DNA of 64,000 nucleotides from Ptychomitrium polyphyllum (Eukaryota): assembly GCA_973851085.1 (NCBI GenBank), contig OZ316776.1, positions 10,168,001 to 10,232,000 of the forward strand, read 5' to 3'. Positions 1 through 36,800 of this stretch are shown one piece after another. Every line of letters begins with the position of its first letter. The stretch's first letter is position 1. Under the pieces are notes generated by a model. It saw only the letters and a program-made list of their open reading frames with translations. It searched no databases and was not told where the DNA came from. The position numbers and the translations under genes were made by a program.

Positions 1-1471
1 ACCATGTGAGCCATGCCCATGGATTTCCTTGTACTCAAGTCAACTTCATGTGAACACTCATGGTCCCATGCCACTCCCATAGCAGTTGCTAGACTGTGAA
101 CTCGTCACCACTTCTAAAGCTAATGGTGAGCTTGGGCTAAACTGTACGAAAATCACGTAAAATGGGCTAATTTTGTTGATCAACCGAGTCGTCCTTGGGC
201 TCATATTTTTCAGGTCTCCTGTCATTGTGTCCATCACTGCATGTTAAACTGCAAACTGAGACGATACAGTCCGTGAGCAAATATGCAGAGCGAGTACCTC
301 TGAACTAAAAGAAAGAATCAACGCCTTCTAGAATACTGAACAGCTTGTTCGACATCACACTTCAGACCTAATCTAAATTGTCTAAGGAGACGCTGATGAA
401 ATCAGAGGTCTGGTTCACCTCTGAAGCGGTACTTGTGTACAGAGATGTCAATGAAAAAAATTCGAGCCTGAAGAATAAATTCTCAAGATCTTGGTATAGC
501 ATTCTTGCTAAGACACTCAACATGATTACATACATTATAACGCAATTACCTAGACTTCATGTAAGAGGCCTTCAGTATGATCCATGTATGATGCTCCTGT
601 TCTAATTCCCTTGCAGTTAGCTGGTGGCAAATTGAGACGGTGTTCTAACTATCTCTCAGAGTTGCTGGATGTTTACGTACATTCATGAATAATAGAACGG
701 CGCATCAAATCAGGAAGTGGCTATGATCACTATTGCTGATACACATTCACAACTAGTTCCTGAAAAGTGATTTCATAAACAGGCACAAATTAAAAATACA
801 ACTACACATCAACAATCATTGCTCCAGCCATCCAAGGATCGATGCCACATCGCTAAAAATAGCTTGGATAGCGAACTAATTATTTTCTTCAGACATATAA
901 ATAGACCTTTTCATACATTGTTTTTATTTATAAGAATGGCTTTTAATTCTCATCATATATTCAATCCTCAGCACATCTTTAAAACCAGTACTAGAACCTT
1001 GTAGTGCTCAGTTTGATGTCTTCCCGCTCGATACTGGGAAATTGCAGATCCTTCAGGACACACGATCCATGCTCTACCACTCGCGAACTTCATCCTCTTC
1101 ATCATGAATGGTTACAAACTATCGCCGCTTCATGTTTTCGCTTGAATAATCCCCGGTTGCATATCGTGACAATATCAAGAGGGAAACCTTCCATCAAGAC
1201 CTTGAAGTCCGAGTGGCATGTGATCACTTATGATTAACAAGCAGCTTCAGTACGCCGCATTGGTTCACAAAGCTTTAGCTCATGGATAATATGCAGAATC
1301 CATCTCTTTGAGAATCCATGCAAGTGGAAGAGTATTCGACAAAGATTTTTCACCAGGTCCCGAGGATGATTTCGGTCCCTTCGTAGACCAAGAGGCCAAC
1401 GCCACAGTAATCTTCTCGCCGGAATTGCATTTGAAGGGGAATAACAGAGTTGACTGACCGTATACAGTTTA

Positions 1472-1492
1472 AGAAGAGAGAGAGCACAAGCA
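1472..1492 (-). promoter_or_regulatory. Candidate miR529 target site directly after the stop codon of copy 1
   Basis: The + strand at 1472-1488 reads AGAAGAGAGAGAGCACA. This equals nt 1-17 of moss miR529 as I recall it (AGAAGAGAGAGAGCACAGCCC), so the minus-strand mRNA is complementary. The sequence is low-complexity and GA-rich. Confidence 0.5.
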
Positions 1493-1711
1493 CTAACTTG
1501 ACGGTGCAGATGACGTGGACGAGTCGAAGTGCCAGGTGTGGAAGGCGGGCATGAAGACGTCCTGCGCGTACAGCACCCAACCATCGCTCAGTGACCACAG
1601 CAGTACTGAAAGTAGTAGCAGCAGAGACACCACATACGCCTTGATCACCAAGTACGACACCTCGCCCTTGCTATACTCCAACTCATGATGCACCACCACC
1701 GCCTGCTTCAT
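1493..1711 (-). CDS. Small single-pass membrane microprotein, 'KAY...SDxW' family copy 1 (72 aa)
   Basis: ATG-to-TAG ORF MKQAVVVHHELEYSKGEVSYLVIKAYVVSLLLLLSVLLWSLSDGWVLYAQ... It aligns without gaps over the KAY-to-D-x-W core with the ORFs at 5470, 9831 and 16090, and has one hydrophobic segment. Confidence 0.75.
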   Translation of the reverse strand: MKQAVVVHHELEYSKGEVSYLVIKAYVVSLLLLLSVLLWSLSDGWVLYAQDVFMPAFHTWHFDSSTSSAPSS

Positions 1712-2299
1712 CGCTCCACCAACCCAGGCACCACAATCCGTCGGAAACGTCCCTTCCTGTAAAATCCTGCAACAACGTCACCAACTCAACCTCCGGCACC
1801 AGACAAGCCACTGGTTCAATTTTTGCTGTCCGATGATCAGTACTTGATACAACTTACAAAGTTCTCGATCATGTCCAGATACACCGACGAGGCCAACTTC
1901 TGATCGATCAACGTAGAGCCTGAGGAAAAGCTGCTTTCGAAGAAAAGACCAAGAACATTACAAGTACAGCTCCTCCAAAGTGTGATCATCCCTGGAGCTG
2001 CACAGCGGCGGCGGTGTGAAACCAGTAGCTAGACGTTCGGAGCGCAACAGTGGTGCCGTCCGAGTTGCGAAACGACTGGGAGTGCAGCAAGAAAGTGGTC
2101 CAAACTCGCACGCACAAATGGGGTTCTGGAATGGCAGGTCCAGCTCCAAGTCCTCCCCCCTTGCAAGTGGGGAGCATGTATCTATACAGTGCTGTGTACT
2201 TAGGACTCTGATCCATTGCTCTGTTCAAGTGCAGGTAAGGTGTAGCTGTCATGTGCGTAGGTGGTCGGTCAATTCGGGATGCATGGCAGAGTGCTACAC

Positions 2300-2325
2300 C
2301 TAATTAAACCATGAGGTTTAATTAG
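2300..2325. promoter_or_regulatory. Perfect 11-bp inverted repeat with two TAATTA cores, upstream of copy 1
   Basis: CTAATTAAACC-atga-GGTTTAATTAG read directly from the sequence. Confidence 0.5.
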
Positions 2326-2422
2326 CAAACTCCCACATACGGAGTCTACTAGTGATAGTAGATGCCATGCATCTTCAGCTCCTTGTTGCTAGCTTTCACC
2401 GGTCAAGCTTTTCTTTTCTTTC

Positions 2423-2448
2423 CGTTTCGTTTCGTTTCGTTTCGTTTC
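2423..2448. repeat. (CGTTT)5 microsatellite
   Basis: Read directly from the sequence. Confidence 0.85.
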
Positions 2449-5400
2449 TCAAATCAGTGGTGGTTAAATTCTTCTAGATAAGGTCTCTTCTATAACTTGA
2501 GTTTGAGTTTATGGAAGTTGGAGAGCACAGTCATAAACCATATCTCACTTTATAACATGTTATATAAGTTTGTAGTCCAAGTGAACAATAATAAATATAA
2601 AAAGAAGCCAAAAGATTAGGTTTAAAATGGTTCTACAAACTCCAATAGGTTTGAGGTTAAAAATGAAATTATAATTGATGTCAACGTGATTTGGATGAGT
2701 TTAGTGATTCAACAAATTTCTTCAAACAATTCAAGGAGTTACAATTGCAAAACTATTCATGTTTAAGTTTATATGTATTTTGCATTGTCTTCTAAAGGTT
2801 TAAAATGGACATTGCCATTAATATTATACAATAATGTTTTGTTGTATCTAGAGTGGTTTCATATGCCTAATTGATTTTATTTAAGATCAAAAGTGAAGTT
2901 TAAATTCATGTGCCTTACTATCATGTGCCTTACTATGGTTTAGATGAGGTATTAGAATTATAATTTGGAATTTTCTACATATAGAAAAATATCAACTATA
3001 TGTAGATTATTCAACATGACATTATTCAAAGGATTTTCAAAGGTTAATTATGCAAAGTCAAAACTTCAATGTGTTAACAATACTATGATTGATTTGAAAT
3101 AACAAGCATATTTGTGCAAAGCATGTGGTATTGCACAAGCACATAATATTTAACACCAAGTTTTAAATCACTTGAAACAAAAGGACTTTTGTCCTTAAGA
3201 TTTTCAATAATTGAACATTCATAAATTTTTATAAATCAATCAAATATTGGATTTTTAAATGTTTTGAAGTTGTGCTATCTTGTGGATCTATTTAAAAAAA
3301 ATATTATGTTTATTATTAATAATAACCACATTTAATTGTCTTTCATTTAATTATATTCAATGCCATGCCAATTAAATTTTATTTATGCCTTGCAAATGAC
3401 TTGCATTAATTATTAAATACAAATGCTCAGTTTTTTAATCCAATTGTTTGTTTATCATATTTAATGTTGATTTTTGTCTAATTTTAGATCCAATTCAATA
3501 AATGGATTTAAAAATGACAAATTTTTATTCAAGTATTGTACTTGGTTGTGCATAACAAAATATAAGTCTTAGTGTTAGAAGCTCTTCAAAAGTGAAGTTC
3601 AATTATATTAGATTTTATAAAAAATAATGAATCACAAATTCTATTAAATATGTATAAAATAATTCAAGCTACAACAAATCTTGTAAAGCCATTAGCACTT
3701 TTTTTTAATAATTAAAATAAATACAAAAAGAGAAAATTTCTAGAAGCCACTTTTAAAAATCACTAAAAGTTATGTACATAAGATTGAATGTTATAATCCT
3801 ACAGACTACCATTAATATTCTCATGTAATTAGTTTTCCATAGGATCTCCAGCTTGAAGAGCTGGATATCCAAAATTACAATTTATAAAGGGTAGTTTAAT
3901 CACATCAAACTAATGACTTTTCAATTTATTCAATAATACTTCAAAAAGTGGCCCAAGACGGTTGTTCGAAATTTAGGGTTAATAAATATTTTTAAGATAG
4001 TAATTCTACAAACCCTTTTATTGCAGTACAGTCTCCAACTGTTGAATTCAATACATTCTTTATCATTGCTTTGATTTGATTCTGGTCGATTGTTGGAATG
4101 AGCCCTGGCATTTGGAAGGATTCAACTCTAGAATATATAACTGCACATTGCAATGCACAATGCGGTCGCCTTCACAACTTGTGCTCACTACTGTAGCTGT
4201 AACTTTAGTTCCAATCAAGTGTATTTTTACATGTTTCTGAGGGTAATGACTACTGACAAGTTTGTTTCCCACTTGCAACTTCCCACGAATCAAATAAAAT
4301 GTCTGACCACTGCAACAAAAGTTGCAAGTTGCATGTTGAATACAGTAACGAATAAACTTTTGGCAAGAATGGTAAGCAACGACTCCACTGACAATCACAA
4401 CCGGATACAAGCACTGTAATGAATTCACCACATCATACAAGTGATACTGGGTAACAGTTCTTCAGTGATCAAAGGAGGGAGAAATGATCAGTGTTAAGTT
4501 CTCATCACATTAATGAATGCCTACTGTTCCATAACGTAATTGATATATGCTATTATTCTGATCAAGCTTACAAGATGTTTGAAAGCAGCTTGATGTTAAG
4601 CATTGAGGGGATAAGATATTGAGCCACGGTGCAAATCTCTATCATCCCGTGACTGATCTGGCTAGCTTCGGGACAAAATCACTGAAGGTCACATAGCTTA
4701 CCACTTGCACAAATTAAATGTTCCGGTTAAAACGGGGATTTCTGAAACTTTTATTAAAAGCATTTCTGCAGGTACTTTACATAGTGCTTGCTGCCGGAGA
4801 AGCCCAAATTGTAGGTGAAAAGTTTGCACAATGCGCCACTGCAGTTTTGTATTTGGTTTTTAGTTGGAATCAAATGGAGAGGGAGATTGCAATGCAAATA
4901 CAGCATAAAATATTATAATAAGAAAAGTTCAAACGGAGAACATGTAGTACTGAATATTGGAAGTGCCTCCTTCATGAGCTTACCCCAAACGATCGAATAT
5001 TTTTATGACATTGCGTAGCGCAAGTTGGAGCTCCTATCTCGATTGCATTCTACTCGTATGAACTGCTTCTGTTACCGTAGTGGAACAGCTGGATACACTG
5101 CTAATTACACTCCATGAATTTTTCACTTCCACAAAATCCGGAACAAGGTAGGTATGATGAATTTAAATGGCCAAGGCGAGGCTAATATCATCATACCCTT
5201 GAAGTCCACTTTGAGCTGAGCAGACTGCATTGGATCGTATTCTAGTGTGCATACTTACGTTGACAACTTAGGCCATTATCCGAGAGCTGAATTTTTATTC
5301 ACTGCAAGACTTCGTCTAGTGAACTGAATGCACTGCTTCTTTGAGTCAAGGCCTACAGCACCTGAGATTCAACTCCATACTAGTCCATTGTGACATCATT

Positions 5401-5469
5401 TTTTCGTTAGATTAGTATCCTTCAGAGTTAGTTGATTTGAGAGATACTCAGACGACGTCGGTTTTGAAG

Positions 5470-5649
5470 ATGAAGTGCTCCGCGCTCGACTTTGGTTGGA
5501 ACCGTGATTCGACCTATCTGCTGGAGCCCGCGGATGTGTCGTCAATGATGGTGATTCAAGCCTACACAGTGTCATGTCTTGCGCTGAGCACGGTATTGCT
5601 CTGGACTGCAAGCGACGCATGGTATGCTTATGCGCAATGTTTCGTGTGA
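5470..5649 (+). CDS. Small membrane microprotein, family copy 2 (59 aa)
   Basis: First in-frame ATG is at 5470: MKCSALDFGWNRDSTYLLEPADVSSMMVIQAYTVSCLALSTVLLWTASDAWYAYAQCFV*. The QAY...WTASDAW motif has the same spacing as the other copies. Confidence 0.75.
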   Translation: MKCSALDFGWNRDSTYLLEPADVSSMMVIQAYTVSCLALSTVLLWTASDAWYAYAQCFV

Positions 5650-8600
5650 TCCGCGTTTCATTATCGACTCCTTTCAAATGGGAATATTAGATCTGTGAAA
5701 ACCTTGACAATATTTGGGGAATACGTATTGGATGTCAGAATTGGTATTCAGATACAACAGTGGTGACGACCTCGAAGCGGTCGAACCAACTCACGTCAGA
5801 TTTTTGGAGGTGTCGGACTAGCGACACACAACGGCGGCCCAGGTCAATGAATCCTGCCTTCATTTTATTTCGGACTTGGACCAAAGGTTGACACTCCCAA
5901 GCTAAAGGGTAGTTACCAGACTTCTTCAGTCTGTGGTGTATCTGAGGTCACAGCTGTGATAATGTAACTTAGACCAGGTCTTTGAGGCCCTTTCATAGCC
6001 AGCTTTGGACAGGGTCTGTCAGTTCACTTTCTCCTGCGCTGCGCTTGTGTTCAAAGTTTGTGCCTGTACAAAAACAATCATGAAAAGATTCTTTCGAATT
6101 TTTCAGAATGTCATGGCACTCTTCAGTGAGTTAGTTGATGTAACTCACCGTCACTGTGGAATGCAAGAAATTTCATAACAGTCACAAATAACTGTAAGTG
6201 CATTATAACATTCACCTTGGGGCAACCACCAAAACCACAACGGTAAAACATAGAAATCCAAAGATGATGTATCGTTAATTCATGTAGAGAAAACAACTAT
6301 AAATAATTGAACCTCATATATGTTTAATTATTAAAGGCTCCTTTTATTAATATAAGTTTTAGTAATAATTACGTAAATATACAATGATTTCTTCTAAATT
6401 ATAAAATATTCGTTTTTTTCATAATCTTCAAAACATACGTAATAATATATGTGTTGTATAAAGTTGATAGGAATGTGTTTCCTCCAATAATGAACATAAC
6501 TTACTAAAAATTTGATTAATTATAACAACTTGTATTCCATTTCTTCAAATTCTATGAAAAAAAAGTTGAATTCCGATCTCTAGGAAGATTCCGTGTAAAT
6601 AAGTATCTATTTATTCTATCTCTTAGTCCATGTTTCAAGTAGAATTATTTTTTCATGTAAGGAAGAAAATTCTATATAACAAATAGAACACTACAAATAA
6701 TTAAAATACCAAGGCACCACACATTGTATGTAACTTAAATTATATTAAAGTATATATGTTATGTAATTATAGAAGATGCTTAGATGCAAGTGAATTTTAC
6801 ATTTGCTTAGCTCCAATTCAAAACTTGGGTAGGCTTATTTGAGGTAGGAAGTATTGTTGTATTAACTTAGCATTAATATGTGAATACTTTGATTGAAAGA
6901 AAAGATGTGCCAATATCTTGAATAATTATGATTTCATGCTAGAGAGTTAATATTAATGAAAGAATGGTTTAAATTATTACACCAATTTAAAGCTGGAATT
7001 GAAGGATTGGATGGAGGTTGGTTGTTTTGAAGTTTTTTTAAAGAAGTATAAACATAGTGTATTATTTTGTTAATGTATTAATGTTTTTAAAGGTGCATTT
7101 GATGGATATTTTAAAGATCTTTCCTCTGAAGACTATTGTTGAAAGAATGTGTGTTCCTACTTTTGCACTAGATGTAATCACTATGATAGGTTTAATTATC
7201 CATCATTTGACTTGATGTTATTAATGAATGGTTGGTGTTTACTCGTTTTTTTTGTTAATTATTCATTGGAAGAATCTAACATTAGAGCATGTAAATTTAG
7301 TAAATTTTATTATGATGTTGGAAGCAAGGATTTTTGTTGCAAGTTTGTAAGGTGGATTTTGTTGTTAAAGAATAATTTTTTACATATGTTGTATTTAATT
7401 TGAATTTTTGCATTGAAATAACATCTTCTATTATTGCATGCACATGGTAGTAACCATGGAAGTCTTTTTGCTATATTGGATTCTTTTACAAAATTACATG
7501 TATTGAAGCCAATTTTTCATTTTTCATTTTTTCATTTATAAAGACTACTTTTTTTTAATGGTTGAAAAAAACCATCTATACAATAGCAAAAGTATAGGAA
7601 AAATCTAAAAGTGGATTATTTCAAAGTTTGGCAAAAAAAGTGGTAGTATGTTATTTAACTACAATATTATAAAATAAGTAATTTTAAAACCATTTAATCA
7701 ACATTGCTCATATTTATTCTTAGCACGTGCACAACTATACATAAATAAATTTCAAACACATAAATACTAAAAAAGACTATATTATCAATTAAATCTTCAA
7801 AATGCTTATAATGTATAAATGTTATATTATAATTTTCACTACTTCTTGATTTTTTTAGTGAATTTAAGAATAGAAAATTTAGAGAGAGATCTTTTTATTT
7901 GAATGGAAACAATGCTTCAAAATTTGAACATTCTTATATTTGGCAAAATGTAAAACCTTAACTCCATTTGAAAGGGAGCATTTTTTTTATAGGTTTGGTT
8001 GTTTAAATTTTACTCTAAATTATTTTTTAATAAATATAAAATGATCTTCCTCATATTATTTTACTACAATAGCTAAAAAATACCAATGCTAATCCATGTA
8101 TCATTTCAATGAAGATTTTAAATTAGATGTAAGAATGTTTTAGTAATTATAATATTTTCCAATTAAATCATAAAGAAATTTATCTTAGGGACCAAAATAA
8201 TTATATTGTAATTTATAAAAAGATCTTTCTATGATTCATAAGCCTTCTTAAAGTGAGTTATTAGGATTTCTTAACATTCTTAATTCAATAAAAATGTGCC
8301 TTTTAATTTGAATTTTAAAAATCATGCTAGATAAAATATTTTATTTTGACAGATAGTTAAATAAATTTAAATTGTAAAAGAAATGAACCTTGCTTAGTAA
8401 ACTATGGCAGTATTTACATTAAGCATTATCTAAAAGAAAATCACAATCACTTCAAGCAAAATACACATTTTTATAAAATCATGAATGAAATCTTCCTTAG
8501 AAATTAAAAGATTAAAAATATTTAATTACATGGTGAAGAGTGAACAAAACATTAATATTACATAAAAAATAAACATTTATCTCATTTTTGGAATTTTTTT

Positions 8601-9830
8601 TTTTTCATAATACATAAAATCATGAATGATCAAATGATAATTGGATTATTTTTTAACAAATTTATTTTATGATTTGTTTTGACTTTCTAAAAACAAGTTC
8701 ATTAACAATTAATGAAGTAAAAACTATTTTTGATGATTAAACATTATAACATATACATGACCTGGTACTTGCAATGTTCATCTAAATCTTTAGCTACTGA
8801 CCATTTATCACGCAATAATTCAACAAACTCTAAATTTGATTTCTATGTTGATTCCTAAGCGGAGGGGTTGTTCTAACATTGATTATAGAATGAACAAAGT
8901 GATTTGTTATAGGAGCCAAAAAGACCATCCTTAAGTTGGTTCACAGATGTTTTACTTTTATCTACTGAAGCGGCCAAAATCTTTAGCCGTGTGTTAAAAA
9001 CATTGTGTTTGTACATAGCTTGTACATAGTTTCTACATAGCAACCTGGTTTTCAGTGCAGTTTCATAGCCTCCAAGATGGCCTCCCAAATTCCCAACGCC
9101 ATGCATGCACTGAATTCCTGCCCACCTCAAAGACGGAGAAGTGAGAATCGGAGGGGTATGGGTGCCACACCCCAGATCACACATTCCATACTCGCCGCAG
9201 TAATAAATCCTCGTATCATGAAAGCTGAGATCTATCCACTCACAATAGCTCCCGCTAATATAAGCAGTCTGGCACCTCTTGGTAATATTAGAATGCGTGG
9301 TGGGCACTGGGATCTTCCTCTTAGGCTATCAATGCAGCCCCCTTGGTCCGAATGGCTGAGAACGCGCATCGTCATAATGATCACAAGCCACATGTTTTAT
9401 ATTATAAAATAACAACACACAACACTGCTCCCGAAACTGTGGCCTGGACTGATGATGATGACGACCACCATGAGCTGAGCATACATTGAATTGCCAACCA
9501 AATGTATGATACGACCCACTTGCACAAGTTGCAGCTCCTCCAAAATACTATTTTTTGCACCCTACAGTAGACAAGCTGATTTCTTCCTTTGTTTGAACCC
9601 GTAGCTTCAACTGCAACTTGAGGCGTCCTTGTCCCAGTTATGTAAATTAAGCAGTTGTTCTCCGCGTTTGAGCTCAGCACCAGGTTCACAAAAACCTCAG
9701 TCATGCAGAGTTTGTTTCACTCTCTTCTCTGCTCACAACTTTCAGTTGATCCTCTTTCTTTCGGTTAGAGCACTAGCAATCTGGGAATGCCAGTCGTATG
9801 ACGAAGGGTGTTTATTAGTAGGGTGAATCA

Positions 9831-10040
9831 ATGGAGGTTTTCGTGCGAGATTTGGAGTCCAAGAACGAGGTTTCCTATTTTATGATTAAAGCCTACGTCT
9901 TGTCTCTCTTCTTTCTCGTGGTGATTCTGTTTTTGGCTGTTGGCGATGCTTGGACTCAGTATGCAGAGTTGTACTTCACGTCCTCTTTTACCTCGAGCTA
10001 CACTCACCGCTATCTCGACTTCAGCTTGATGACTCTCTGA
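9831..10040 (+). CDS. Small membrane microprotein, family copy 3 (69 aa)
   Basis: MEVFVRDLESKNEVSYFMIKAYVLSLFFLVVILFLAVGDAWTQYAELYF... Start context is good (tcaATGG). It is closest to copy 1 (LE.SK.EVSY, W..YA). Confidence 0.78.
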   Translation: MEVFVRDLESKNEVSYFMIKAYVLSLFFLVVILFLAVGDAWTQYAELYFTSSFTSSYTHRYLDFSLMTL

Positions 10041-11381
10041 AGCGCTAGGCTTCTGATTTGCTGTCTATTCTTCCATAGCCTTAACTTTGCCCTATTAGAA
10101 TTCCGTTCCTTTCACCGTTCAAAATGGAGCCTCCAGGCTCGAAACACAATCTTTTCAATAGAGATTTCAAAGCCACCCACTTGCTTCCCGACATGATGAC
10201 TTCGTTCGTAGTGCCCTTGAGTTCCGGGCTCTTCAATTGCTCTGTTTCGGTTGATTGGTGCATGATCTCGAGCTCCATGCTTTCGGCTTGTCCTAAAGAG
10301 ACGCAAAGACGGCAGGATTCGTTCCTTCCTTCTCTTCCTGAGGTTTGCACATTGCAACCTCCACCCTCGTGACAGCGTTTCCAGGAATTGAGCGGATGCA
10401 GATACAGACCTCCTTCGGTGGCGTGAAGGATGGGTGAAGAAGGCAGCGAGCAAGGATTAGGCTTCTACATTGGATATTCAAGCAGTCTATTGAGTTTGTT
10501 GTTGCTCGGCGGGAGTGACCGGCTTTGTTGAACATTTGAGCCATGATACTCGAAGTTGTGTTTCAAAGGCTGCTGGGAATAGACTCAGTGACCACGAACA
10601 GGGAGCATTCAATAATTGCTATGACCTGTTCTTTAAGGTTTGGTCCAGATGTGAGTATTCTTGAGCAGTGGATTCAAATAGATCATATTTTTGAGGCTAG
10701 GTTAGGTTAAATTCAAAAGCTTACATGTTCGCATATGTGCAGTGCACACATAAATACAATGAGGTATCTTTTAAATTTATTCAAGATGTTATTTTCGGGC
10801 TCTGCTTCTTTTGAGTGTTCTGCTACAACTTGACTGATTGTGCTTCTTGGTGAGGCTGCAACGTTTGAGTCTTCACTGAGATGATCCATCTTCCTGAAAG
10901 TTGTGGTCACTGACCACTTTGCAAGAGATAATACTTTGCAAATTTTTTGGATGATATAACTGGAAACAGTCGATAACGCGTCTTAGCATTATCACTCTTC
11001 ATGTGCCTAACATCACTCTCTGCTCCGCTGCTGTTCTTCTGTGGGATTCCTTAGTCAACTTTTTTTGTGAAAAGATTTCAGTTTTGCAAATTCCCCTTCC
11101 AGAATAGCATCTGAACCACTGCTCCCAAAAACCACTGGACTATGTGATTTTACAAACTCTACTGGTTAGAATCAATGATCTTTCTCGGGCTTTCTTTTTG
11201 TTAATGTTCCGCTAATTGTCCTGCACACGGTTAATCTTTATTGGAGTTCCGAGAGGCTGCGCAGGGAACGCCAACTCAACAAAACTATGGCACAAAGAAG
11301 CTCACCCACTACACTTCACAGCATATAATTGACGTGTTAGGAGTACTGTCGATCATCTGTGACCTGCTTCTTGCTTGCAAG

Positions 11382-11585
11382 TTGATCATCAAAGCCTACG
11401 TCAAAGCGATAATTATAATCACCATATTCAAAACGCAGGCTGGCGGTGATGCACTGATGGTGACGATGGGGAGCAGGCGGTGTTTCCTGGCTGCTGCTGC
11501 GAGTTCTGCCTTGAAGTTTCTCCGAGGCGGCGATCAGGGCGGAGATAGCGGCACAGGCATAAGACCTTCCTTCTATGAAGGATAG
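11382..11585 (+). pseudogene. Divergent or degenerate family copy 4
   Basis: LIIKAYVKAIIIITIFKTQAGGDAL. K is at 11391 and D at 11448, the same K-to-D spacing as the other copies. The conserved Trp is lost, lysines interrupt the hydrophobic stretch, and there is no in-frame ATG upstream of the motif. Confidence 0.45.
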
Positions 11586-11840
11586 ATTGGATCTCACGCA
11601 CTGTCCCCCATACGCGAATTAGAGAATCCACTTTCAAGCAGATTCGTTGTCACGAATAAATTCTGAACCAGTAAAAACCTTCTCAAACATGACAAGAACT
11701 TAACTTGTAAACTTATTATCCTTGCTTCGAATGGAAATGGCCGTCTCGCGTTAGAGCTCATCTCATGTTGCATGGGCATACTCCTCCCACAAAGCTTGGG
11801 CTGAACGCTTAATCTTCTCGAGCTTTGTCTACATGGCATG

Positions 11841-11927
11841 GGAACTTCATAAGGAACTTCATTAGGAACTTCATTAGGAACTTCATTAGGAACTTCATTA
11901 GGAACTTCATTAGGAACTTCATTAGGA
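11841..11927. repeat. 12-bp minisatellite (GGAACTTCATTA)x7
   Basis: Seven near-perfect units. They give the PNEV repeat in the minus-strand ORF. Confidence 0.95.
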
Positions 11928-13067
11928 GTGCATTCATGTGGGAGCCCATTCATGCATATGGTATCTTGGTTTAGGATATAGGAGCCAAAATGTGCGGCAT
12001 GGCTATTTGTAATGCACATTGACATATTTGTATTTTTTTAAATCTTTAAGATTTAAGATTTGTGGTGCGTTGATCTATTGAAGGTTTGGGATTAATGTAA
12101 TGTTTTGTTAATGTCAAAAGCTAATGTTGATTTCTAGCTTGTGGATTTGTAGGTGTATTAAGTACAAGAGCCTTTGCATGATTGGAAGTTTTAAAGTGCC
12201 AATCTTTACCAATAAGGGAACAATTCAAATTGAACAATTTTCCTTTACTTAAGGACTTTAAGCTTAAAGATTGTAAAGATTGAAGAAGGTTGATTGGATA
12301 TGAGTTCATCAATACTTTGATTAAAATCTATGTTCTTGATTAAAGTAAGTTGACAATGCTACTAAATCTAAAAATATTTCGAGCATTATCATTTTTTATT
12401 TATAAAGAATATCAAAAATGAGGCAATATTTTACAAAAGTTTCAAGATAATTCCAAAAAATCAAGTTTAATATCTCATATCTTTATAAATTGACAAACTT
12501 GGTAAATTATCATTTTGGAACTTATTATTTATTTATTATATGTATTTATTATGTTTATTTTTTTGAAAATCAATGTATAATTTATAAAAAACATTGGAAT
12601 ATTAGAAATTTTTAATGTTCATGTCTATTCAAATTATTAATTTTTTTTTCTTACATTTGATATAAATGTGGATGAAAGTTATCAATCAACACCTTTATGC
12701 AAGACATAATAAAACTTAGAATCTTGGATGCTTATTACAATCTTTCAAAATATTATTAATACATAAATTTTTTAAAGGAATAAGATTATATACAAAAATG
12801 TGTAAAAAGATGAACTTGTATACAATGTGATATTGGAAACCAAAGATATAAATGAAAGTATGTCATGTGTTTTACAATTAAGTTAAAGACAATTGTTGTC
12901 TTTAATTAAAGCCATTATTATCTTTAATTTTTAAAGCCATTATTTCAATTATTATTTTCAATAATTAAAGCCATTATATATTATTTTGATTAAAATTGGA
13001 CTTCATATACATATACAAGAGTATGCCAAGTGAAATTATGCAAGCTTATTTTGTGAACTTTATATAT

Positions 13068-13487
13068 TATTACAAATATAAGTTATATAATATAATCTTT
13101 AGAATCTTCTAGAACCTTTTGGTACATTTTAGTAGCTTCTTAAAATCCTTTCAATGCTTCCATAGCCATTCCACCTTCTTGAAAAGCTTCTTAAGAAGGT
13201 TCCACCTCCATTGAAAACTTCTAAAAAAAATTCTATAGACTTTGAAAACATTAAGAAGCTTTAAAGGATGCGTCTTTAAAAATATCTTAAGAAACACATG
13301 CATTGTAGTATAAATAGAAGGCAAGACAAGATATATTTTAGTCTTGTGAATACAAATTATAAATCATATTTTTATATTGTGCCCTTCTTTTAATCTTTGT
13401 ATCATTTCTTAAGAATCAATAGCATTTTAGAAGCTAATTCAAAGAAAATACTTTGTGTCTACTTCTTGTTTTCTTTTGCTTTTAATA
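13068..13487 (+). mobile_element. Degenerate solo-LTR-like relic, same family as 62787-63388 and 63580-64000
   Basis: Shares TATAAATAG.AGGCAAGACAAG..AT..TTTAGTCTTG, GAAGCTAATTC and CTACTTCTTG blocks with the copies at the window end. Confidence 0.75.
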
Positions 13488-14893
13488 TATATCATGGTTG
13501 GATTAAATAATCAACAATTTCTTTAAACTTTTGAATAATAACTTAAAATATTAAATAATGGAAAGTACATAATTGCTTCTTTTCTTCCAATTGATGAAAA
13601 TATGATTTTTTTAAATGTTTAAAGAATTATATTATACATCAATCAATACCAATTGAAGAGTCATTAAATCTTCTCTTATAAAAAAATTGCCTTTGTTATT
13701 AACAAATATAATAAAAACATTGTCAAAAGAGCTTGCACTTCTTGATTTATTTGTATGTTTCCATTTAGAACTTGAAAATTATGCAATATCTCATATTCAA
13801 AAGGTGCATATTGAATTATTAGAATTAAGAGAACGCTTTTAATGTGAAGGTTTGCATCCATTTGATTTGTTGAAGCAAATCATTGATGATCAAAGTTTAT
13901 CAATTCAAAAAAACTAAGCCACTTGTAGAACATTTGTGTAAAAGAAAATACTAATGTCTATATTTTTCCATTAGACATTGTATTAATAGAATGAATAAGG
14001 TGCAAGGAATCAAATTACAAATTCTACTTGAATTTTGAGAGGAATGGCAAACAAATTTTGTGGATTATATGTTTTAATGATGATTGTCTTATCTTTGCAT
14101 TAGCAAGAAGACTTTGCTTAACACAATTCATATAGAAGTTGTTTTACAATATGGAAGTTTTTATGGAACTTTGCAACCTCTAAATTGTTGATTTTATGGA
14201 CTAGACTAGCTTGACATGAAAAAAAAGATTCAAAGTTAGAAGGTACTACTTAGCTTTTATATAATATGGAACGTTCACAATCTGTTTTCAATATTTGACT
14301 ATTGCCACTAGTGTAAGAAAAAACAAGCAATATGAAGAATCTTCTTTAATAGCAATACAAAAATTGGCAACAACTTGGTTCTTTTAAAACTAGCATACAA
14401 CAAGATTGTGTTCTTTTGTAGACACATTGTTCTATACCTAAACATAGAGCTAAAATCCATGTTGCAACTAATCCATTATTTATAATGATAAAGGCCACTT
14501 CTATGCAATTGGAAGTATTAAATTGATTTCCGATTTCTAGTAATAATGTTGGTTATCCACATTGAAAAGCTTGACTCAAAAAGGTGGCAAGGCAACAAAA
14601 TTGAATATGTCCCCTCTATATTCATTTTAAATGTGTGAAATTTGCATTTTCTCTCGATTTATTACATCGAAAGATCATAGCCGCTTTCTTTTGAGTAAAC
14701 TTCTCTCATCCGACCTTTTAAAAGTTTTTATTCATTATCTTTTATTTCATTTGAGTGGGTTGGGCCCTACTACAAGTCCTCCACAACTGTCTCGCTGTAT
14801 TGCAGATGGGTGCTATAGTTGAAACAGTGAGGACGGTTACAGCATGGAGGCATATCCTTAAGGTAGGGGGGCCTATTCCCAACAGTTCAACAC

Positions 14894-14969
14894 GGATCCG
14901 TTCTCTATGCATGTGACTAATTTAAAACATGGGATCCGTTCTGTACGCATATCACTAATTTACAGCATG
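14894..14969. repeat. 38-bp tandem duplication upstream of copy 5
   Basis: GGATCCGTTCTCTATGCATGTGACTAATTTAAAACATG followed by GGATCCGTTCTGTACGCATATCACTAATTTACAGCATG. Confidence 0.85.
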
Positions 14970-16089
14970 CAGGGGCAACCGCCCTCGAATTACGTGCAGT
15001 TATAATCGATGGGAATTCACTCTCTGTTTACAAAGTTACTTCCAACTGCTGCCAGTGAGACTCAAGTGATAATTCAAGAAGGGAGTAGATTCAGACACAC
15101 TTCTAGCAAAAGTAACAACTCATGCACTGGGTACATCTGTATCAGCGCTGTTGCAGCCTGTTGCGATGTACTGAGGCAGGCCGATGGACGGCTCTTGCTT
15201 CAGCACACCTACTCAAGTATTTGAAAACAAGATTTGATTACCCCTTCACGCACCCCCAAGAATGGAAGAACCATAATTAAATATGGCAAGTGGGTCATAC
15301 AGCTTGATTATAGAATTGCTAATCAGAAGGGGAGGACCAGTTCGAAGCCAGGTGACGTCACCACGCTTCCTCAGCAGATCATCCACAGTGAAAATGCATG
15401 CCGGTTGCTCCAGGTTGTGTGCTCCTGCATGCCAAGCATAGAAAGAATCAATATGAATCATGACCAGCTCCCAACAGTCGCTTGCTTCTCAAGAGAAATG
15501 AGTCGGTGCATTCACCAGATCATTTCATTTTGCGGACTAGATTCACCACTTTCAAGTGAACTGCAGTTGAAACTACAAGTAGTCTGTACTCGGGTCAAGT
15601 TGGGGGCATCTCCTTTGAACATAAATCCGGCAACTGACATGAGCGCCCCGAGAGTGCTCAATAATTGCCCAATCCATCTTACACTTCCCCCATTTTATGC
15701 ACCAGTCTCACCTTGGAAGTTGGAAGAGAGTCGAGTAATTTCGAAGCTGAAGTCTTCCGTTAGGAGCTCTAGGACGTGGCAAAGAGTTCGGCAAATTTTT
15801 TCCAACTTTTGTATCACCAAGATCGTAATACAATGTCCAGTTCTAGCTGCAAAAGAAACTTTTAATGATTGTTGAAAGGCCCACTTAAAGTTTGTGGGGT
15901 GTAGAACTGCTTTAGTGCGTGAAACGCAACTTGTGTGGGCACTACAGTGCTATTGGAGTAGTACGTGTCCAGTGTATCCTAATTCGGTTAGGTGGTTCGA
16001 CAAGGAAATTGATTTACCATGTTTCACAGGGAGTTGGAGCCACTTGTGTTCGCCGTACGGTTTTTTTAAATTGTTAGAAGCTTATCCCG

Positions 16090-16254
16090 ATGCCGAGGAC
16101 TGGCCTTGGGTGGCAACTGGACAACGAGGTTCTGTCGCTCATGTTCAAGGCCTACGTTTTGTCCCTTGTCCTCGTCGCCGTCGTTTTATGGTGGACTGCA
16201 AGCGACTCCTGGCTGCATCTTGTGGACCATGTGTTCAGTGGATTTGTGATTTGA
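16090..16254 (+). CDS. Small membrane microprotein, family copy 5 (54 aa; below the ORF-track cutoff)
   Basis: Hand translation: MPRTGLGWQLDNEVLSLMFKAYVLSLVLVAVVLWWTASDSWLHLVDHVFSGFVI*. It is closest to copy 2 (GW near the N-terminus, WTASD.W). Confidence 0.78.
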   Translation: MPRTGLGWQLDNEVLSLMFKAYVLSLVLVAVVLWWTASDSWLHLVDHVFSGFVI

Positions 16255-17380
16255 TTGGCTTTTTAAGGTTGACAAGTTCAATCATCTCAACATGCAATGA
16301 TGAAGTCTCATTTGGAGCGGGGGGTGAAAACTGAGGCATATCTGGAAGCATTGGCTCACTTCCTCCTTACTAGCTCTAATACTCTCAGCATGCCAGGAGC
16401 ATTAGAGACTTAGAACTGCAGCATCAACGATGCTCGGATCCTAGCATGACCAAGTGAGAGATTATTTGAGATAGTCCAAGCGACGGTGTTTACAGATTGA
16501 TCGAGCTGTACATAGAAGATTTGGGATTCTTTAAGCTACAAGAGTAGTGAAATTATATCAAATGATTGAGCTGTGAATGTAGAGTATCTCTATGTCGTGT
16601 ATCTGATAAGCATCGCTATCACGGAAAACATGTTTCAACGGAGTCAGTTCTTTTACTCGACATCATTGTAACATTTGCAGTGCGCAAACCCATGGTTTGA
16701 CCTGAGAAACGTTGGTTGCAGGAACACTGACCAAAACCCTAATTCCAGTCCCCAGCAAACTGAATCTATTAGGTGAATCGCTGGTCATTTAAATACATCA
16801 ACCCAGTAACCAAGGTCATAAGCGTACGCTGGAGGTTCAGGCACTAATGATAAAGCTAGACTTTGACAAATGTCGGAAAGCAACCAGGTTGTCGTTCAGG
16901 ACTCGTGATGAAGACCATGGAAAGCAAGGAAGACTACATCCCATTGGTAACAGACTTCGAGTTTAAAAGGTGTCGACGTCGCTTCCACTCCTCATGTTAG
17001 GGTCGTTATTTTACTCTGCCATGACTGACAAATATTAATTTTAGCGTAGGAGTCGACAAGATAGCCCATTTTCAATACTGAAGGTGGCTTATCTGATCGT
17101 ATGCATTGTCCCTGTTTAACAACAAGGAGGCCACAGTCAGCAAAAACTACCAATATTAAGCAGATACCACATATTGTCACATTTGATATCTCCCTCAATT
17201 TCAAATGTCTGATAGACAAGTCCTTGAAGATTGGAAGATTCCTGTTGTAAAATTGGTGAAGTTGACAAAATTTCGTTACAAACAAATTGATACCTAAACC
17301 TGGAAACATGCGGTGGGGCATCAATCCATTAGAAGGCTTTAGTTCATGAGAGATTGTTGTACCTAACCAAACTATTACCT

Positions 17381-18690
17381 CTACCTTCTCCCTCTGAAAA
17401 TCACACGGCTAGTCTTCTTCGCAGCTGAGGCAGACGTGCGTCCGCCACCCAGTTCCTTAAATGGCATGCCCATCAATTCAAGAAGCTTAAGCCCTTCAGA
17501 GTCGATCTTTGCGGCAGTGACGATGCAGATGTCCATTCCTGGCTGCTTGTCGATGTTCTCAACCTCGATTTCAGGGAACACACTAATCTCGGGAAGATCC
17601 AGGGTGTAGTTGCCTCTTCCGTTGAAGCTGAGGGTTTACTCTCTGAAAATCCTAAGAACGTGGGAGTGCCAAGTTCAGTCGTCTGCTCAAGAACGAGTAT
17701 ATTATCTGCATTTGGTCGCAAACTATTAAATTGATATATTTCCTGGCAATTCTAATGCCTTATCCATATGTGATACGAAAGGGAAAATTGAACCTATAGG
17801 CAGAATTTATGTGACATTCATAAAGCAACACATTCTAGAAATGCGTCACAATCCCAGAATTCAGAATGATTGACAGTTAGACGCACTATATCCCAACTTG
17901 GGACCAAGCTTCTAGAATCACTGGACGCATTGTGACAAGTGCAATCCTTCTGCACAATTGAAGTGCTGAAAATTTCAAGGACTCTTGTTGTGGAACTTCC
18001 TCATCGGCATAAGGCCTAGTTTGGGAAACTGAATATCATCCAGCAAGTGAAATCCAGAAACATTTCCTGGTTCGAGTAAGAAATGTACATCTCCACGCAA
18101 TGTGAGCGTGACGCCGACGGGACTCCCTTCCGGAGCTTGAAACCCGCAATAGCCTTCCTCGAGCGAGTCACCAGGGCAATGTCCCGAATTGTCCCTTCTA
18201 AAGCTTCAGCATTCTGCGACGCCACTCCTACACCACAATTCACAATGAGCTTCTTCACTTGCGGAATCTGCAAAGCAAGCCCCAACAACAAACACCCAAT
18301 GCCATAACGTCAACTCACCAAATCCCCCCAAACCCCGAGAAAAACGGCGAAATCTACTGCAAATAAACCCTAGACTGCCATGTAAGAGAAAATCCAAAAC
18401 AGGACGCACCCACCTCGAACTGTAGCCATACTTAAACTCCTCCTGCAAGCCAGGCACCACATTCTCCTGGTAAATCCCTGCAACCGCTGCGCAGTCCTCT
18501 CCTCCGTCGGATCCTCCACCGCCACGGCACCGAAAGCACTCACCGCCACCACCCTACGGCACAGCCGTCTGGAAACTCCAACCGCCACGACCGCAACACG
18601 CCTGCTGCCTATCAACGACGAACCGCCGCCGCCGCTGCTGCTACTGCTGGGCAGCAAGGTGGCCGTGGCGGCAGCGGCAGTGCACTCCAT
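17381..18690 (-). pseudogene. RPL5: Unprocessed pseudogene of nuclear-encoded plastid ribosomal protein L5 (uL5c)
   Basis: Has a transit-peptide-like N-terminus followed by [46 protein letters not shown] and GMDICIVT...LLELMGMPF. Two introns are retained. There are frameshifts near 18477, 18120 and 17630, an in-frame TAG at 17652-17654, and loss of the GQxPV segment. Confidence 0.88.
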
Positions 18691-33878: not shown

Positions 33879-36800
33879 ATGAAGCGGCAACAAGTCATCT
33901 CGCGCTTCTTCACCAAGCCTGCTGCTGCCGCCGCTCCTGCCGCCGCTCCTCCCTGCAGCTCCGATGCATCTTCTAATCAGCCATCTCCCAAGCGGAGCTT
34001 GAGCAGTGCGGGGGGTTCACCGATTGCAAGCAGAGCACCGGTTTCATTGTTGTCTCCTAGGCCTGATAATGGATCCAGAGATTTTAGCGAGGGTTTTTCG
34101 TTCGGTTCTAGCAGCCAACGATCTTCCAGGAAGAGATTGCAAGATGAAGTTGAGGACAATGCAGAGGATCGTTCGTTGGTAGAGTGCAGCCAGCAGGAGA
34201 GAACTTTCGCGTCGGGTTAGTGTTGGCTTGTTTTTCTGTGGTGTGGAGATTATTGGCTGAATTGATGTCCATCTTAGGTCTCAGGGTTTAAGGAATTCGA
34301 TTCCGGGTCCATTCTGCTTCGCACTCTGTTATGGGAGCTTTAAATTCTCTAAGAAACTAGGTTTGCTTTACAATGAAAGGCATTTCAAGCTTTTGGTTGT
34401 ATGTTTTTGTCGTGCGTTGAGGAGCCAGCTTGTCATTAGAGCTTAATCATTAGATAGGGTTTAGGCTTTTTTACCATGATTAATTCTGTTCCTCTGGTTT
34501 GAGGTCCAAATTGCTAGTTGTGCTTTAAGATGTCGAGTAACATCGGTTCTCCTGAGGGATACCCATTTTCTAGAAACTCTGGTTGGTTCTATGGTATGGA
34601 ATTGCTGAGCAGCCGACAAGAACACATGAAAAGGCCAATGTGTCTACATTCTTTGTTGGTAGACTGACTGATGTGATTCTTACGCAGTCAGTGAGAGCGA
34701 TGGCAGTTTGAGAGCTGCCCCGTTGCGCAAGAAACGAGCGATTACAAATACTGTAATACCTCCTGCGGTCTCTGATTCTCCAGAAATTGAGGCTCGTGAG
34801 AAGATTCTTGATCAGCCTCGACTTTTGTCGTTAGACACTGAGGATCATAATTCATCTGGGCCACAAGTTGAAGGAGAAGTGAATGAGCAAGTTTTGGAGA
34901 GAGGGCATGGATCTGCTCGTGATATTGGCTGTGAGGAACCAGGCCCGTTATCTTCGAATCAACCTCCTTTGATACAGAAGCGGAGGGCTTGGGGCCCTTA
35001 CAATGAAACTGTAATCCCAGCTGTTGATCCTACTCGGCACAGGAAGTTTGTGAACAAATTATTGGCAAGAAATGACGAGAAAACAACAGAGGAGGAGTTG
35101 CGGTATGGGAAGCCACCTTCAGGGAGACCGACCTATACTCCTCTTGAGCTCCAAGTTGTGGAGCTCAAGGAAAGGTACCGAAAGTGTACCTGACATCTAA
35201 CCCCTCAAGAGCATATAAAATTCTTACGTTCATGTGAAGCCACATGTGCGGGTTTTAAAGGAAGTTAACAGAAAATGTAATGATAGATTTCTACAGCAAT
35301 TTTTGAAAATTAATCAATTTGCCTAATTCATATCTTGGTTTGCAGGTATCCTGATGTACTCCTAATGGTTGAAGTAGGATATAAATACAGATTCTTTGGG
35401 AATGATGCAGAAACTGCTGCTCGTGTACTTGGAATCTTTGCATATTACAATCATAATTTTTTGTCAGCAAGTATACCGACTTTTAGACTCCACGTTCATG
35501 TTCGAAGATTAGTGGAAGCTGGGTATAAGGTTGGGGTGGTACGGCAGACAGAAACAGCTGCAATAAAAGCACATGGATCGAACAAAACAGGACCTTTCTC
35601 CCGGGGTCTATCAGCTTTATATACCCGTGCAACTCTGGAGGCCGCTGAGGACTTAGGAGGCGACACAGAGGGCAATGTTGGTCGTTTGCACAGCTACCTT
35701 ATGTGTATTGCGGAACAACCCATCTTACAAGGCTTTGGCGGCAGTAAGAGTAAGAAAGCGGTAAACTTTAAAAGCGGATCTGCTGAAACTAACGGTGATT
35801 ACGCTGGCTACTACGACACGTGGTTAGGGGTTGTGGCTGTGGACACTGCTACTGGGGATGTAATGTTTGGAGATTTCAAGGACACTGTCATGCGAAATGA
35901 ACTTGAAGCGAGAATGCTTACATGCACGCCTGCTGAGCTGCTGCTGGCAAGCCCACTTTCTGCAGCAACTGAAAAGGTAATAATCTTATACCTCTTTTTG
36001 TCCTTAAAAGATTCACATACTGTATTGGGCTCTTACCTGTGAGAATAGAAAAGTCTCTGCCTGACACTACCGACTGACTTCACTTTAGAGTAGCTACCAA
36101 GAATCTGATGGTACTAAGTCGCTACAGTGTTCTCTTTTTCAAGAGAACCATTTCTTGACTTCTTTTAAACTTCTGCTAGACTTGGGGTTTTTTCTCCAAA
36201 TTTGTATGCAAGGAAAATGCAATGCTTGGCCTTTTGTTTTTGAAGGATTTATTTGTTGCACTAGATGTTAAGCAGTGCACGTAGAAGAGTGAGAATGTGC
36301 AATAAAGAAAAGGATGCAGGTGATGAAATTGAGTGTCTGTCATGGTGCTTGGGTTGCCACTTTGATGGAGTATAAGCCTCTAATTAGTGTAGACCTCGGC
36401 TTGCAGCTTGTATTGGAATACGCGGGGCCTGCTTCAGAGGTTCGCATAGAGCGTATTTCTCGTGATTGCTTTAGAGATGGAGGGGCTCTTGCAGAGGTGG
36501 TGTCTTTTTATAAAGCTAAAGGTGAAAAAGATGCTGCAGCTTCTATCAAAGTTGAAGAGAACGTAGATCCAGGTTTGGAGGTAGACTCCTAACTACGGCC
36601 TCCAGTTTTTTACATCTCCTTAGTTTTGCAGAAGTTTCTTATTAAGTTCAGAGCTTATGTCACCAGCAAGGCATGAAGAGGTACCTTATGAGCTTTTTGG
36701 TGAGGAATCTACTCTGTATTATTTAAAGTGGCTCGCGTGCTAACATTTGCCACTCTTATATTTTTCTGAACAACAATATCTGATTGTTGCATGCAGGCTG

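What the first reader, a model, noticed from the sequence alone, without database searches (positions are those of the whole stretch)
1493..16254. Cluster of five paralogous, unrecognised single-pass membrane microprotein genes ('KAY...SDxW' family)
Seen: ORFs at 1493-1711 (-), 5470-5649, 9831-10040 and 16090-16254 (+), plus a divergent copy at ~11382, each sit on their own GC-richer island. All share [E/D]V-x-x-(x)-h-h-h-[K/Q]AY, a hydrophobic run, then [S/G]D-[AGS]-W, with exactly 19 residues from K/Q to D in all five. Codons differ synonymously (AAG GCG TAT, AAA GCC TAC, AAG GCC TAC; GAT vs GAC). N- and C-termini and flanking DNA are not alignable by eye, which points to selection on the peptide rather than recent DNA repeats. 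Inference: this is an old tandem family of 54-72 aa single-TM microproteins, possibly regulators of membrane complexes or signalling peptides. It does not match families I know (DVL/RTFL, AG-peptides, RCI2, CLE, RALF). Copy 5 falls below the ORF-track cutoff, so annotation may miss these genes or call them lncRNAs.
Basis: partly seen in the sequence, partly recalled or inferred. Interest (0 to 1): 0.9.

Follow-up and report, generated by a model that had tools for sequence, protein, structure and literature searches.

The report
Moss membrane microprotein family plus partner-ORF
Four small genes here belong to an old, unnamed family of 54-72 residue one-helix proteins also found in the model moss Physcomitrium, which likely sit in membranes and likely tune a larger membrane protein, and one of them is followed by a second conserved small gene that may share its transcript.

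Summary
Four of the five copies are intact ORFs of a real, old family; the copy at 11382 is a probable relic (no in-frame ATG, no Trp, broken hydrophobic run). A word-index search gave 29 related protein clusters (all E<=4e-8); four hold Physcomitrium patens records named 'uncharacterized'; no Pfam, NCBIfam or PDB family matches. The family splits into three subfamilies and this window carries one of each plus a fast-evolving fourth gene; their duplication predates the split from P. patens. dN/dS of the core against a related contig is 0.13. Conservation follows one face of a helix, and N-glycosylation sequons in many C-tails suggest N-in/C-out topology, so the best reading is a single-pass accessory subunit that docks on a membrane partner (inferred; partner unknown). 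New: the subfamily-A gene is followed 83 nt later by an unrelated, unannotated 82-aa ORF (10124-10372) conserved in the same place in two other loci (63% and 35% identity), in a different frame, so it is a separate protein from a bicistronic or alternatively spliced unit. Transcription, translation, function and range beyond mosses are untested.

The parts
1493..1711 (-). KAY-family gene, subfamily B, 72 aa (P0001); K of KAY at 1642
   Evidence: tree; 79% identical relative P0005; AlphaFold helix, pLDDT 91-94 over residues 21-40
5470..5649 (+). KAY-family gene, fast-evolving QAY copy, 59 aa (P0002); subfamily not resolved
   Evidence: E 3.5e-10; long branch 2.4, grouping with C not rejected, p-AU 0.33
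9831..10040 (+). KAY-family gene, subfamily A, 69 aa (P0003); ORF1 of the two-ORF unit
   Evidence: related contig aligns from its ATG without gaps, 37 differences in 199 nt; core dN/dS 0.13
10124..10372 (+). ORF2: conserved 82-aa protein of no known family (P0064), 83 nt behind ORF1, frame +2; not in the original finding
   Evidence: 63% identical to residues 96-176 of P0063, start and stop aligned; 35% to a stretch of P0048; 5 of 7 listed differences synonymous; no Pfam hit below E 0.38
10059..10098 (+). Two splice-acceptor-like sites (pyrimidine run + YAG ending 10078 and 10098) in the ORF1-ORF2 spacer; acceptor-like sites also precede ORF1 (9745, 9768, 9776)
   Evidence: simple pattern scan; use not shown
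10597..10647 (+). Short third block conserved in colinear position (11 of 17 residues in translation); coding or UTR element unknown
   Evidence: E 0.53 in window; 1 of 500 shuffles, one of six comparisons
11382..11453 (+). Probable decayed KAY-family copy (relic): KAY and D+19 kept, no in-frame ATG, no Trp, hydrophobic run broken
16090..16254 (+). KAY-family gene, subfamily C, 54 aa (P0004)
   Evidence: 72% identical over 57 residues to P0011; tree

Best explanation
Four intact genes here encode 54-72 residue members of a conserved three-subfamily protein family, each predicted to be a single membrane-spanning helix that likely acts as an accessory or regulatory subunit by docking one conserved face against a larger membrane protein. 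Shown: the ORFs, the family, selection on the peptide, three old subfamilies, conservation with helical periodicity, and a second conserved ORF behind the subfamily-A gene. Inferred: the helix (about K0 to D+19) is an uncleaved signal anchor, N-terminus in the cytosol and C-tail in the lumen of the secretory pathway; the face A+1, Y+2, S+5, L+9, V+12, L+13, A/S/T/C+16, D+19 is the binding surface shared by all subfamilies, while the subfamily-specific heads and tails tune the effect or the sorting, as phospholamban-type peptides do for a pump. The partner is unknown. ORF2 is a separate protein with its own start, likely made from the same transcription unit, either by use of a later 3' splice acceptor that skips ORF1 or by scanning past ORF1's weak start.
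For: Family: 29 clusters at E 5e-26 to 4e-8 and none between that and E 10 among 7987 candidates scored; four clusters hold P. patens records. Selection: 13 synonymous among 28 listed differences to a related contig, dN/dS 0.27 for codons 11-56 and 0.13 for the core (binomial p 0.006 and 0.01). Age: the four window proteins as one clade are rejected, p-AU 1e-5; subfamilies A and B both have P. patens members. Helix: best 19-residue Kyte-Doolittle mean 2.4-2.9 in the relatives and three window copies, 1.8 in P0002; AlphaFold helix with pLDDT 91-94 at residues 21-40. One face: A+1, Y+2, S+5, D+19 invariant in 32 of 32 rows; entropy spectrum peaks at 100-105 degrees, permutation p 0.017 for positions +1..+20. 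Identity between subfamilies is 45-57% in the helix and 6-8% at +27..+33. Topology: K before and D after the helix; N-x-S/T in 13 of 32 C-tails (subfamilies A and C) against 2 of 32 N-tails, 14 of 22 C-tail Asn in a sequon against an S/T frequency of 0.22. ORF2; same spacing in a further contig (273 vs 287 nt between matched blocks); frame +2 here and 0 in P0063; ORF1 start has T at -3, ORF2 has A at -3 and G at +4.
Against: No partner, location, transcript or peptide was observed. The periodicity is modest and weaker for other ranges (p 0.045 for +3..+18, 0.056 for -6..+21) and rows are related, so counts are not independent. None of the four window proteins has a sequon. Small residues at -3 (32 of 32) and -1 (31 of 32) before the Asp fit a signal-peptidase site as well. 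The dN/dS rests on one contig and 28 of its 37 differences; it may be a paralogue or a second organism. ORF2 follows only one of the four genes in this window. Four ATGs lie between the ORF1 and ORF2 starts, two with a purine at -3, which counts against simple leaky scanning. The family motif KAYILSL and VGDAW were absent from the searched supplements of one moss sORF study (its FASTA file was cut when stored).
Confidence: 0.45

Rival explanations
1. The hydrophobic helix is a cleaved signal peptide and the product is a secreted peptide of 11-33 residues that begins D-A-W, i.e. a new family of moss signalling-peptide precursors.
For: A/S/T/C at -3 in 32 of 32 and G/S/T at -1 in 31 of 32 rows before the invariant Asp; D-x-W-x-Q-Y-A-E is 50-59% identical between subfamilies; sequons in C-tails show likely luminal location; subfamily A keeps a Y-L-D-F-S-L end.
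Against: The would-be signal peptide holds the invariant residues and is gap-free in 32 of 33 rows, unusual for signal peptides (established knowledge); the tails differ threefold in length and share 6-8% identity between subfamilies beyond +27.
Confidence: 0.2
2. The helices pack on each other (homo- or mixed oligomers of subfamilies A, B, C) to form a small bundle or pore rather than binding a larger partner.
For: Conserved positions fall on heptad-like a/d/e/g sites (+2, +9, +16; +5, +12, +19; +6, +13, +20) with polar Y, S, D on one face; one gene of each subfamily is kept together here.
Against: The same pattern fits binding in the groove of a multi-pass partner; nothing in the sequence singles out self-association.
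Confidence: 0.12
3. The KAY ORFs are conserved-peptide upstream ORFs whose job is to control translation of the ORF behind them (ORF2), in cis.
For: ORF2 lies 75-83 nt behind the subfamily-A ORF in this window and in P0063, and behind it in P0048; the A-type C-terminus is conserved up to the stop.
Against: No ORF2 homologue behind the other three genes (profile search of 2556 six-frame segments), although these keep the same helix; conservation centres on the membrane helix, not on the last residues.
Confidence: 0.1
4. The motif is an exon of a larger protein, a transposon fragment, or a chance/antisense artefact.
For: Acceptor-like sites lie just upstream of three of the four ATGs by the scan; two P. 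patens gene models (141 and 428 aa) extend the ORF.
Against: Those models disagree with each other and with the 68-aa form seen on 350 contigs; a Met is aligned at about K-19 across subfamily A; a search of 150-2000 aa proteins found 1 hit among 7997 scored, and it is a read-through of stops; depth over the ORFs is single-copy-like while a real repeat at 13083-13470 is 200-fold deeper; no Pfam or Rfam match.
Confidence: 0.05

Closest known systems
P. patens uncharacterized proteins A0A7I4EX17, A0A7I4D0A1 (subfamily A), A0A2K1JXJ1 / PHYPA_013360 and A0A2K1L9Q1 / PHYPA_001183 (subfamily B)
   Same: True homologues: same KAY..S..L..D-x-W core and spacing.
   Different: They carry no family name or function; searches of the paper library for their accessions and for six motifs found nothing.
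FAMOSS/PSEP1 and PSEP3, 18, 25 of P. patens (10.1101/2021.11.24.469821; PMC6724668)
   Same: Small moss proteins from short ORFs; FAMOSS has a predicted membrane helix and binds Rab GTPases (passages).
   Different: PSEP1 and PSEP3 sequences and the PSEP18/25 peptides printed in the supplements show no KAY or D-x-W motif (compared by eye).
Regulins: phospholamban, sarcolipin, sarcolamban (10.1101/2020.07.19.211243)
   Same: Working analogy: small paralogous single-pass peptides, Lys/Arg/Gln at the start of the helix, conserved Trp/Tyr near its end, divergent tails, one face docking in a pump groove (passages).
   Different: No sequence match; animal family; no partner is known here.
Bicistronic plant and algal loci such as CDC26-TTM3 (PMC11291117, PMC12744755)
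   Same: Small conserved ORF1, short spacer under 100 nt, ORF2 in a non-conserved frame, weak ORF1 and stronger ORF2 start context.
   Different: Both ORFs here are small and of unknown family; four ATGs lie between the starts; acceptor-like sites in the spacer allow an alternative-splicing route; a shared transcript is not shown.

Membership tests
DVL/RTFL, RCI2/PMP3, AG-peptides, RALF and other Pfam-modelled small plant families | Match to the family profile | tested here: not met
   No Pfam hit at curated cut-offs for 5 window sequences, 6 relatives or 26 alignment members; best E 0.0035 in 1 of 26. That Pfam holds models of these families is recalled.
FAMOSS/PSEP microproteins | Sequence similarity to PSEP1, 3, 18, 25 | tested here: not met
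   Compared by eye with sequences and peptides; PSEP18 and PSEP25 seen only as peptides.
Regulins (PLN/SLN/sarcolamban) | Single helix with basic/polar residue at its start and conserved aromatic residue near its end | tested here: met
   K in 30 of 32, W in 31 of 32 rows; generic feature.
Regulins (PLN/SLN/sarcolamban) | Detectable sequence homology | tested here: not met
   No Pfam or PDB sequence hit up to E 10.
Regulins (PLN/SLN/sarcolamban) | Binds and regulates a P-type Ca pump | not testable with these tools
   No plant pump could be handed to the complex predictor; needs pull-down and ATPase assay.
Small secreted peptide precursors (CLE, PSY, CEP type) | Cleavable N-terminal signal peptide | tested here: inconclusive
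   (-3,-1) small residues present, but no SignalP-type predictor was available and the helix is unusually conserved.
Small secreted peptide precursors (CLE, PSY, CEP type) | Conservation concentrated in a C-terminal mature motif, variable elsewhere | tested here: not met
   Between subfamilies 45-57% identity in the helix, 50-59% at +19..+26, 6-8% at +27..+33.
Conserved-peptide uORFs | A conserved main ORF downstream of every member | tested here: not met
   ORF2 only behind the subfamily-A gene, 1 of 4 in the window.
Conserved-peptide uORFs | Peptide-dependent repression or stalling in cis | not testable with these tools
   Needs reporter and Ribo-seq.
Bicistronic loci (CDC26-TTM3 type) | Two conserved ORFs, short spacer, order conserved across species | tested here: met
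   Window, P0063, P0048 and one further contig.
Bicistronic loci (CDC26-TTM3 type) | Weak ORF1 start, stronger ORF2 start | tested here: met
   -3 T versus -3 A, both +4 G; one locus only.
Bicistronic loci (CDC26-TTM3 type) | Few other ATGs before ORF2 | tested here: not met
   Four ATGs between the two starts.
Bicistronic loci (CDC26-TTM3 type) | Both ORFs on one mature mRNA and both translated | not testable with these tools
   Needs long-read cDNA and Ribo-seq.

The most novel reading that the evidence does not exclude
Mosses have an undescribed, old family of regulin-like single-pass peptides that control a core membrane transporter or enzyme, and the subfamily-A gene is a conserved two-protein transcription unit in which the choice of start codon or 3' splice site switches output between the membrane peptide and a second, unrelated small protein that works in the same process.
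Probability: 0.2. Interest if true: 0.8.

Novelty: new variant of a known kind. Interest (0 to 1): 0.52.

Why it matters
Few plant membrane microproteins have been characterised. This is a multi-gene family with near-invariant residues kept across old duplications, with four named copies in P. patens, where knock-outs and tagged knock-ins are routine, so its partner and function are directly testable. The conserved second small ORF gives a candidate new land-plant two-protein locus. Interest is tempered because lineage-restricted small ORFs are numerous in moss (a review cites 22,524 moss-specific lncRNA sORFs; PMC12744755) and no function is shown.

Tried and rejected
No whole genome is held. 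No RNA holder listed for window 9000-17000; the two runs listed are contig sets of one sample and may be the window's source. The HMMER search of the 1.84-billion representative library never ran, so distant relatives in liverworts, hornworts, ferns, seed plants or algae were not searched sensitively, and ORF2 was not searched against any large protein collection. Four-copy complex prediction of P0003 residues 8-52: no verdict, score 0.01. ESM Atlas: no usable feature hit for P0001 or P0028; structure look-alikes are generic helices under the naming bar. AlphaFold of ORF2 from 3 sequences: pLDDT 46, not used and not fold-searched; the single-helix KAY model was not fold-searched either. Scans of JGI metagenome, GTDB and IMG/VR contigs: 92, 19, 28 and 53 pattern matches, none confirmed; a DNA-pattern scan gave 3 loci, all chance by translation. 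Rfam: 0 hits in 1-18000. PDB sequences: 0 hits for two profiles. NCBIfam: best E 0.054. ORF2 as a remote KAY paralogue (suggested by a forced alignment): not supported, 12, 3 and 40 of 100 shuffles scored as high. ORF2 remnant behind the 16090 gene: p 0.0006 against one of three ORF2 sequences but 0.18 and 0.21 against the others and absent from the profile's top hits; not claimed. The 10303-10362 block was first read as a non-coding element (hairpin z -3.1; chosen after seeing it conserved; the wider region z +0.9) and then found to be the coding 3' end of ORF2. A spliced ORF1-ORF2 fusion: no convincing donor seen in the window and the frames differ between loci; rejected as a conserved product. 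Earlier-findings look-ups returned nothing. P0019 was left out of position counts and trees (one-residue insertion; 32 of 33 rows used).
Full report
Observation. A profile made from 38 non-window relatives scores them at E 2e-25 to 4e-10 among 2040 six-frame segments of the window; the next segment scores E 0.28. The fifth place (11382-11453) keeps KAY and the Asp but has no in-frame ATG, no Trp, no Ser at +5 and several polar residues in the run. It is the fifth-best ungapped match in the window, reached by 2 of 300 shuffles of 18 kb, and lies inside the cluster, so I read it as a probable relic. One natural relative also ends D-A-L instead of D-A-W (P0047), so loss of Trp alone does not prove decay.

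The family. None of the four proteins is in the collection by exact sequence. A search with their alignment gave 15 clusters and a second round 29, all at E 4e-8 or better, with nothing further up to E 10 among the 7987 candidates scored. Four of the 29 clusters hold Physcomitrium patens records, all 'uncharacterized' or 'hypothetical': A0A7I4EX17, A0A7I4D0A1, A0A2K1JXJ1 (PHYPA_013360), A0A2K1L9Q1 (PHYPA_001183); the rest are unnamed Logan, JGI or ENA sequences. P. patens is the only named organism, so 'moss' for the window and 'moss-restricted' for the family are inferences; the word-index search cannot see distant relatives and the sensitive search did not run. Short forms in those clusters occur on 456, 350 and 152 contigs of at most 4.4 kb, which would fit many transcriptome runs, but run types are not shown. 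No Pfam, NCBIfam, PDB-sequence or Rfam match was found.

Age and selection. Trees of 32 of 33 rows give three groups, A (17 rows), B (8) and C (6), each one side of a branch (support 94/90, 87/27, 99/97); the 5470 protein is a long branch that cannot be placed. The window has one gene of each group. Holding the four window proteins together is rejected (p-AU 1e-5), and A and B both have P. patens members, so the duplications are older than that split. Synonymous sites between window copies are near saturation (pS 0.66-0.88). A second contig in run X1 aligns from the ATG at 9831 for 199 nt without gaps while its flanks do not align; of 28 listed differences (37 in all) 15 are at third positions and 13 are synonymous; dN/dS is 0.27 for codons 11-56 and 0.13 for the core. 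That contig may be a paralogue or a co-sampled organism.

Anatomy. In 32 rows A+1, Y+2, S+5 and D+19 are invariant; V-6, K0, L+6, V+12, L+13 and W+21 are kept in 29-31. Variability oscillates at 100-105 degrees (permutation p 0.017 for +1..+20; 0.045 and 0.056 for two other ranges), placing +1, +2, +5, +9, +12, +13, +16, +19, +20 on one face. AlphaFold gives one helix, confident only over residues 21-40. Lys before and Asp after the helix, and sequons in 13 of 32 C-tails in two subfamilies (14 of 22 tail Asn; 2 of 32 N-tails; none in the four window proteins), point to N-in/C-out. The residues at -3 and -1 before the Asp are nearly always small, which also fits signal-peptidase cleavage (the rule is recalled). 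Acceptor-like sites lie shortly upstream of three of the four ATGs by a simple scan and 7 nt before the ATG in the related contig; P. patens models differ upstream of the same Met. I read this as a non-coding first exon and one coding exon (inference).

A second ORF. The search among 150-2000 aa proteins gave 1 hit of 7997 scored, P0063. Its first 69 residues equal the 69-aa relative P0014, and it goes on through Trp residues where relatives stop, so it is a read-through of TGA by a gene caller (inferred). Residues 96-176 are 63% identical to the window ORF 10124-10372 (82 aa), with start and stop aligned. A 428-aa record in the P. patens cluster, P0048, has a 35% identical stretch behind its KAY part (pairwise E 8e-11). 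The related contig in X1 matches the 3' end of ORF2 at nearly the same distance (273 vs 287 nt), and 5 of 7 listed differences of a low-depth record in X2 are synonymous in this frame. ORF2 is in frame +2 to ORF1 here and frame 0 in P0063 and begins M-E in all three, so it is a separate protein. It has no Pfam match, only marginal hydrophobicity (1.3-1.6), conserved L-P-D, G-x-F-N-C-x-V-S-x-x-W and Cys, and no second copy in the window. ORF1's start context is weak and ORF2's strong, as reported for algal bicistronic genes (PMC11291117, passages), but four ATGs lie between them and two acceptor-like sites sit in the 83-nt spacer, so alternative 3' splicing is at least as likely as leaky scanning.

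Mechanism. I put about 0.93 on the four ORFs being real genes, and 0.45 on the specific reading that they are uncleaved single-pass accessory subunits docking one face on a membrane partner. Rivals: cleaved precursors of a secreted D-A-W peptide (0.2), self-assembling bundles (0.12), cis-acting upstream ORFs (0.1), exon or artefact (0.05). Steps shown: ORFs, homology, selection, age, conserved face, ORF2 linkage. Steps inferred: membrane insertion, topology, partner binding, shared transcription.

Literature. Ten library searches; those for accessions, six sequence motifs and a bryophyte-specific small membrane family returned 0 papers. Supplements searched: 27 of 28 files of PMC6724668, two cut when stored, and 12 of 20 of PMC4365561, without a family motif. 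The 2021 moss lncRNA-microprotein catalogue cited in those papers was not read and may list these ORFs. The library lacks most subscription papers.

Verdict. A real, old, uncharacterised family of small single-helix proteins (four genes and a probable relic), plus an unreported conserved second ORF behind one member. New variant of a known kind; interest 0.52.

Noticed in passing
window:13083-13470: High-copy dispersed repeat: contig depth about 200 times the flanks, over a hundred divergent contigs; looks like a short non-autonomous element.
   Followed up: no
window:11841-11927: Tandem array of a 12-nt unit, about 7 copies, just behind the relic.
   Followed up: no
window:1426-1434 (-), 5675-5682, 10118-10126: The same short context TTCAA(A)ATG follows the stop of three KAY genes within 30-90 nt; only behind the 9831 gene does it open a conserved ORF.
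   Followed up: partly
P0048, about residues 322-353: A degenerate KAY-like stretch behind ORF2 in this gene model (12 of 1000 shuffles as high), echoing the relic's place here; direct alignment to the relic is not significant, p 0.9.
   Followed up: partly
P0009 and P0023: A subfamily-A and a subfamily-C protein both list a longest contig of 5395 nt, a hint that A and C are neighbours in another genome too; not verified.
   Followed up: no
window:10340-10361: Near-perfect inverted repeat/hairpin inside the coding end of ORF2.
   Followed up: partly
window:17381-18690 (-): Neighbouring gene with a weak ribosomal L5 C-terminal match (E 0.0037), likely nuclear-encoded plastid L5.
   Followed up: partly
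window:27875-29564 (-), 33879-41548 (+), 43083-44362 (-), 58443-60734 (+): Ordinary-looking neighbours: NAD(P)-binding protein (E 1e-4), and MSH3-like, F-box/kelch-like and eEF2-like genes (labels recalled from the translations, not tested).
   Followed up: no
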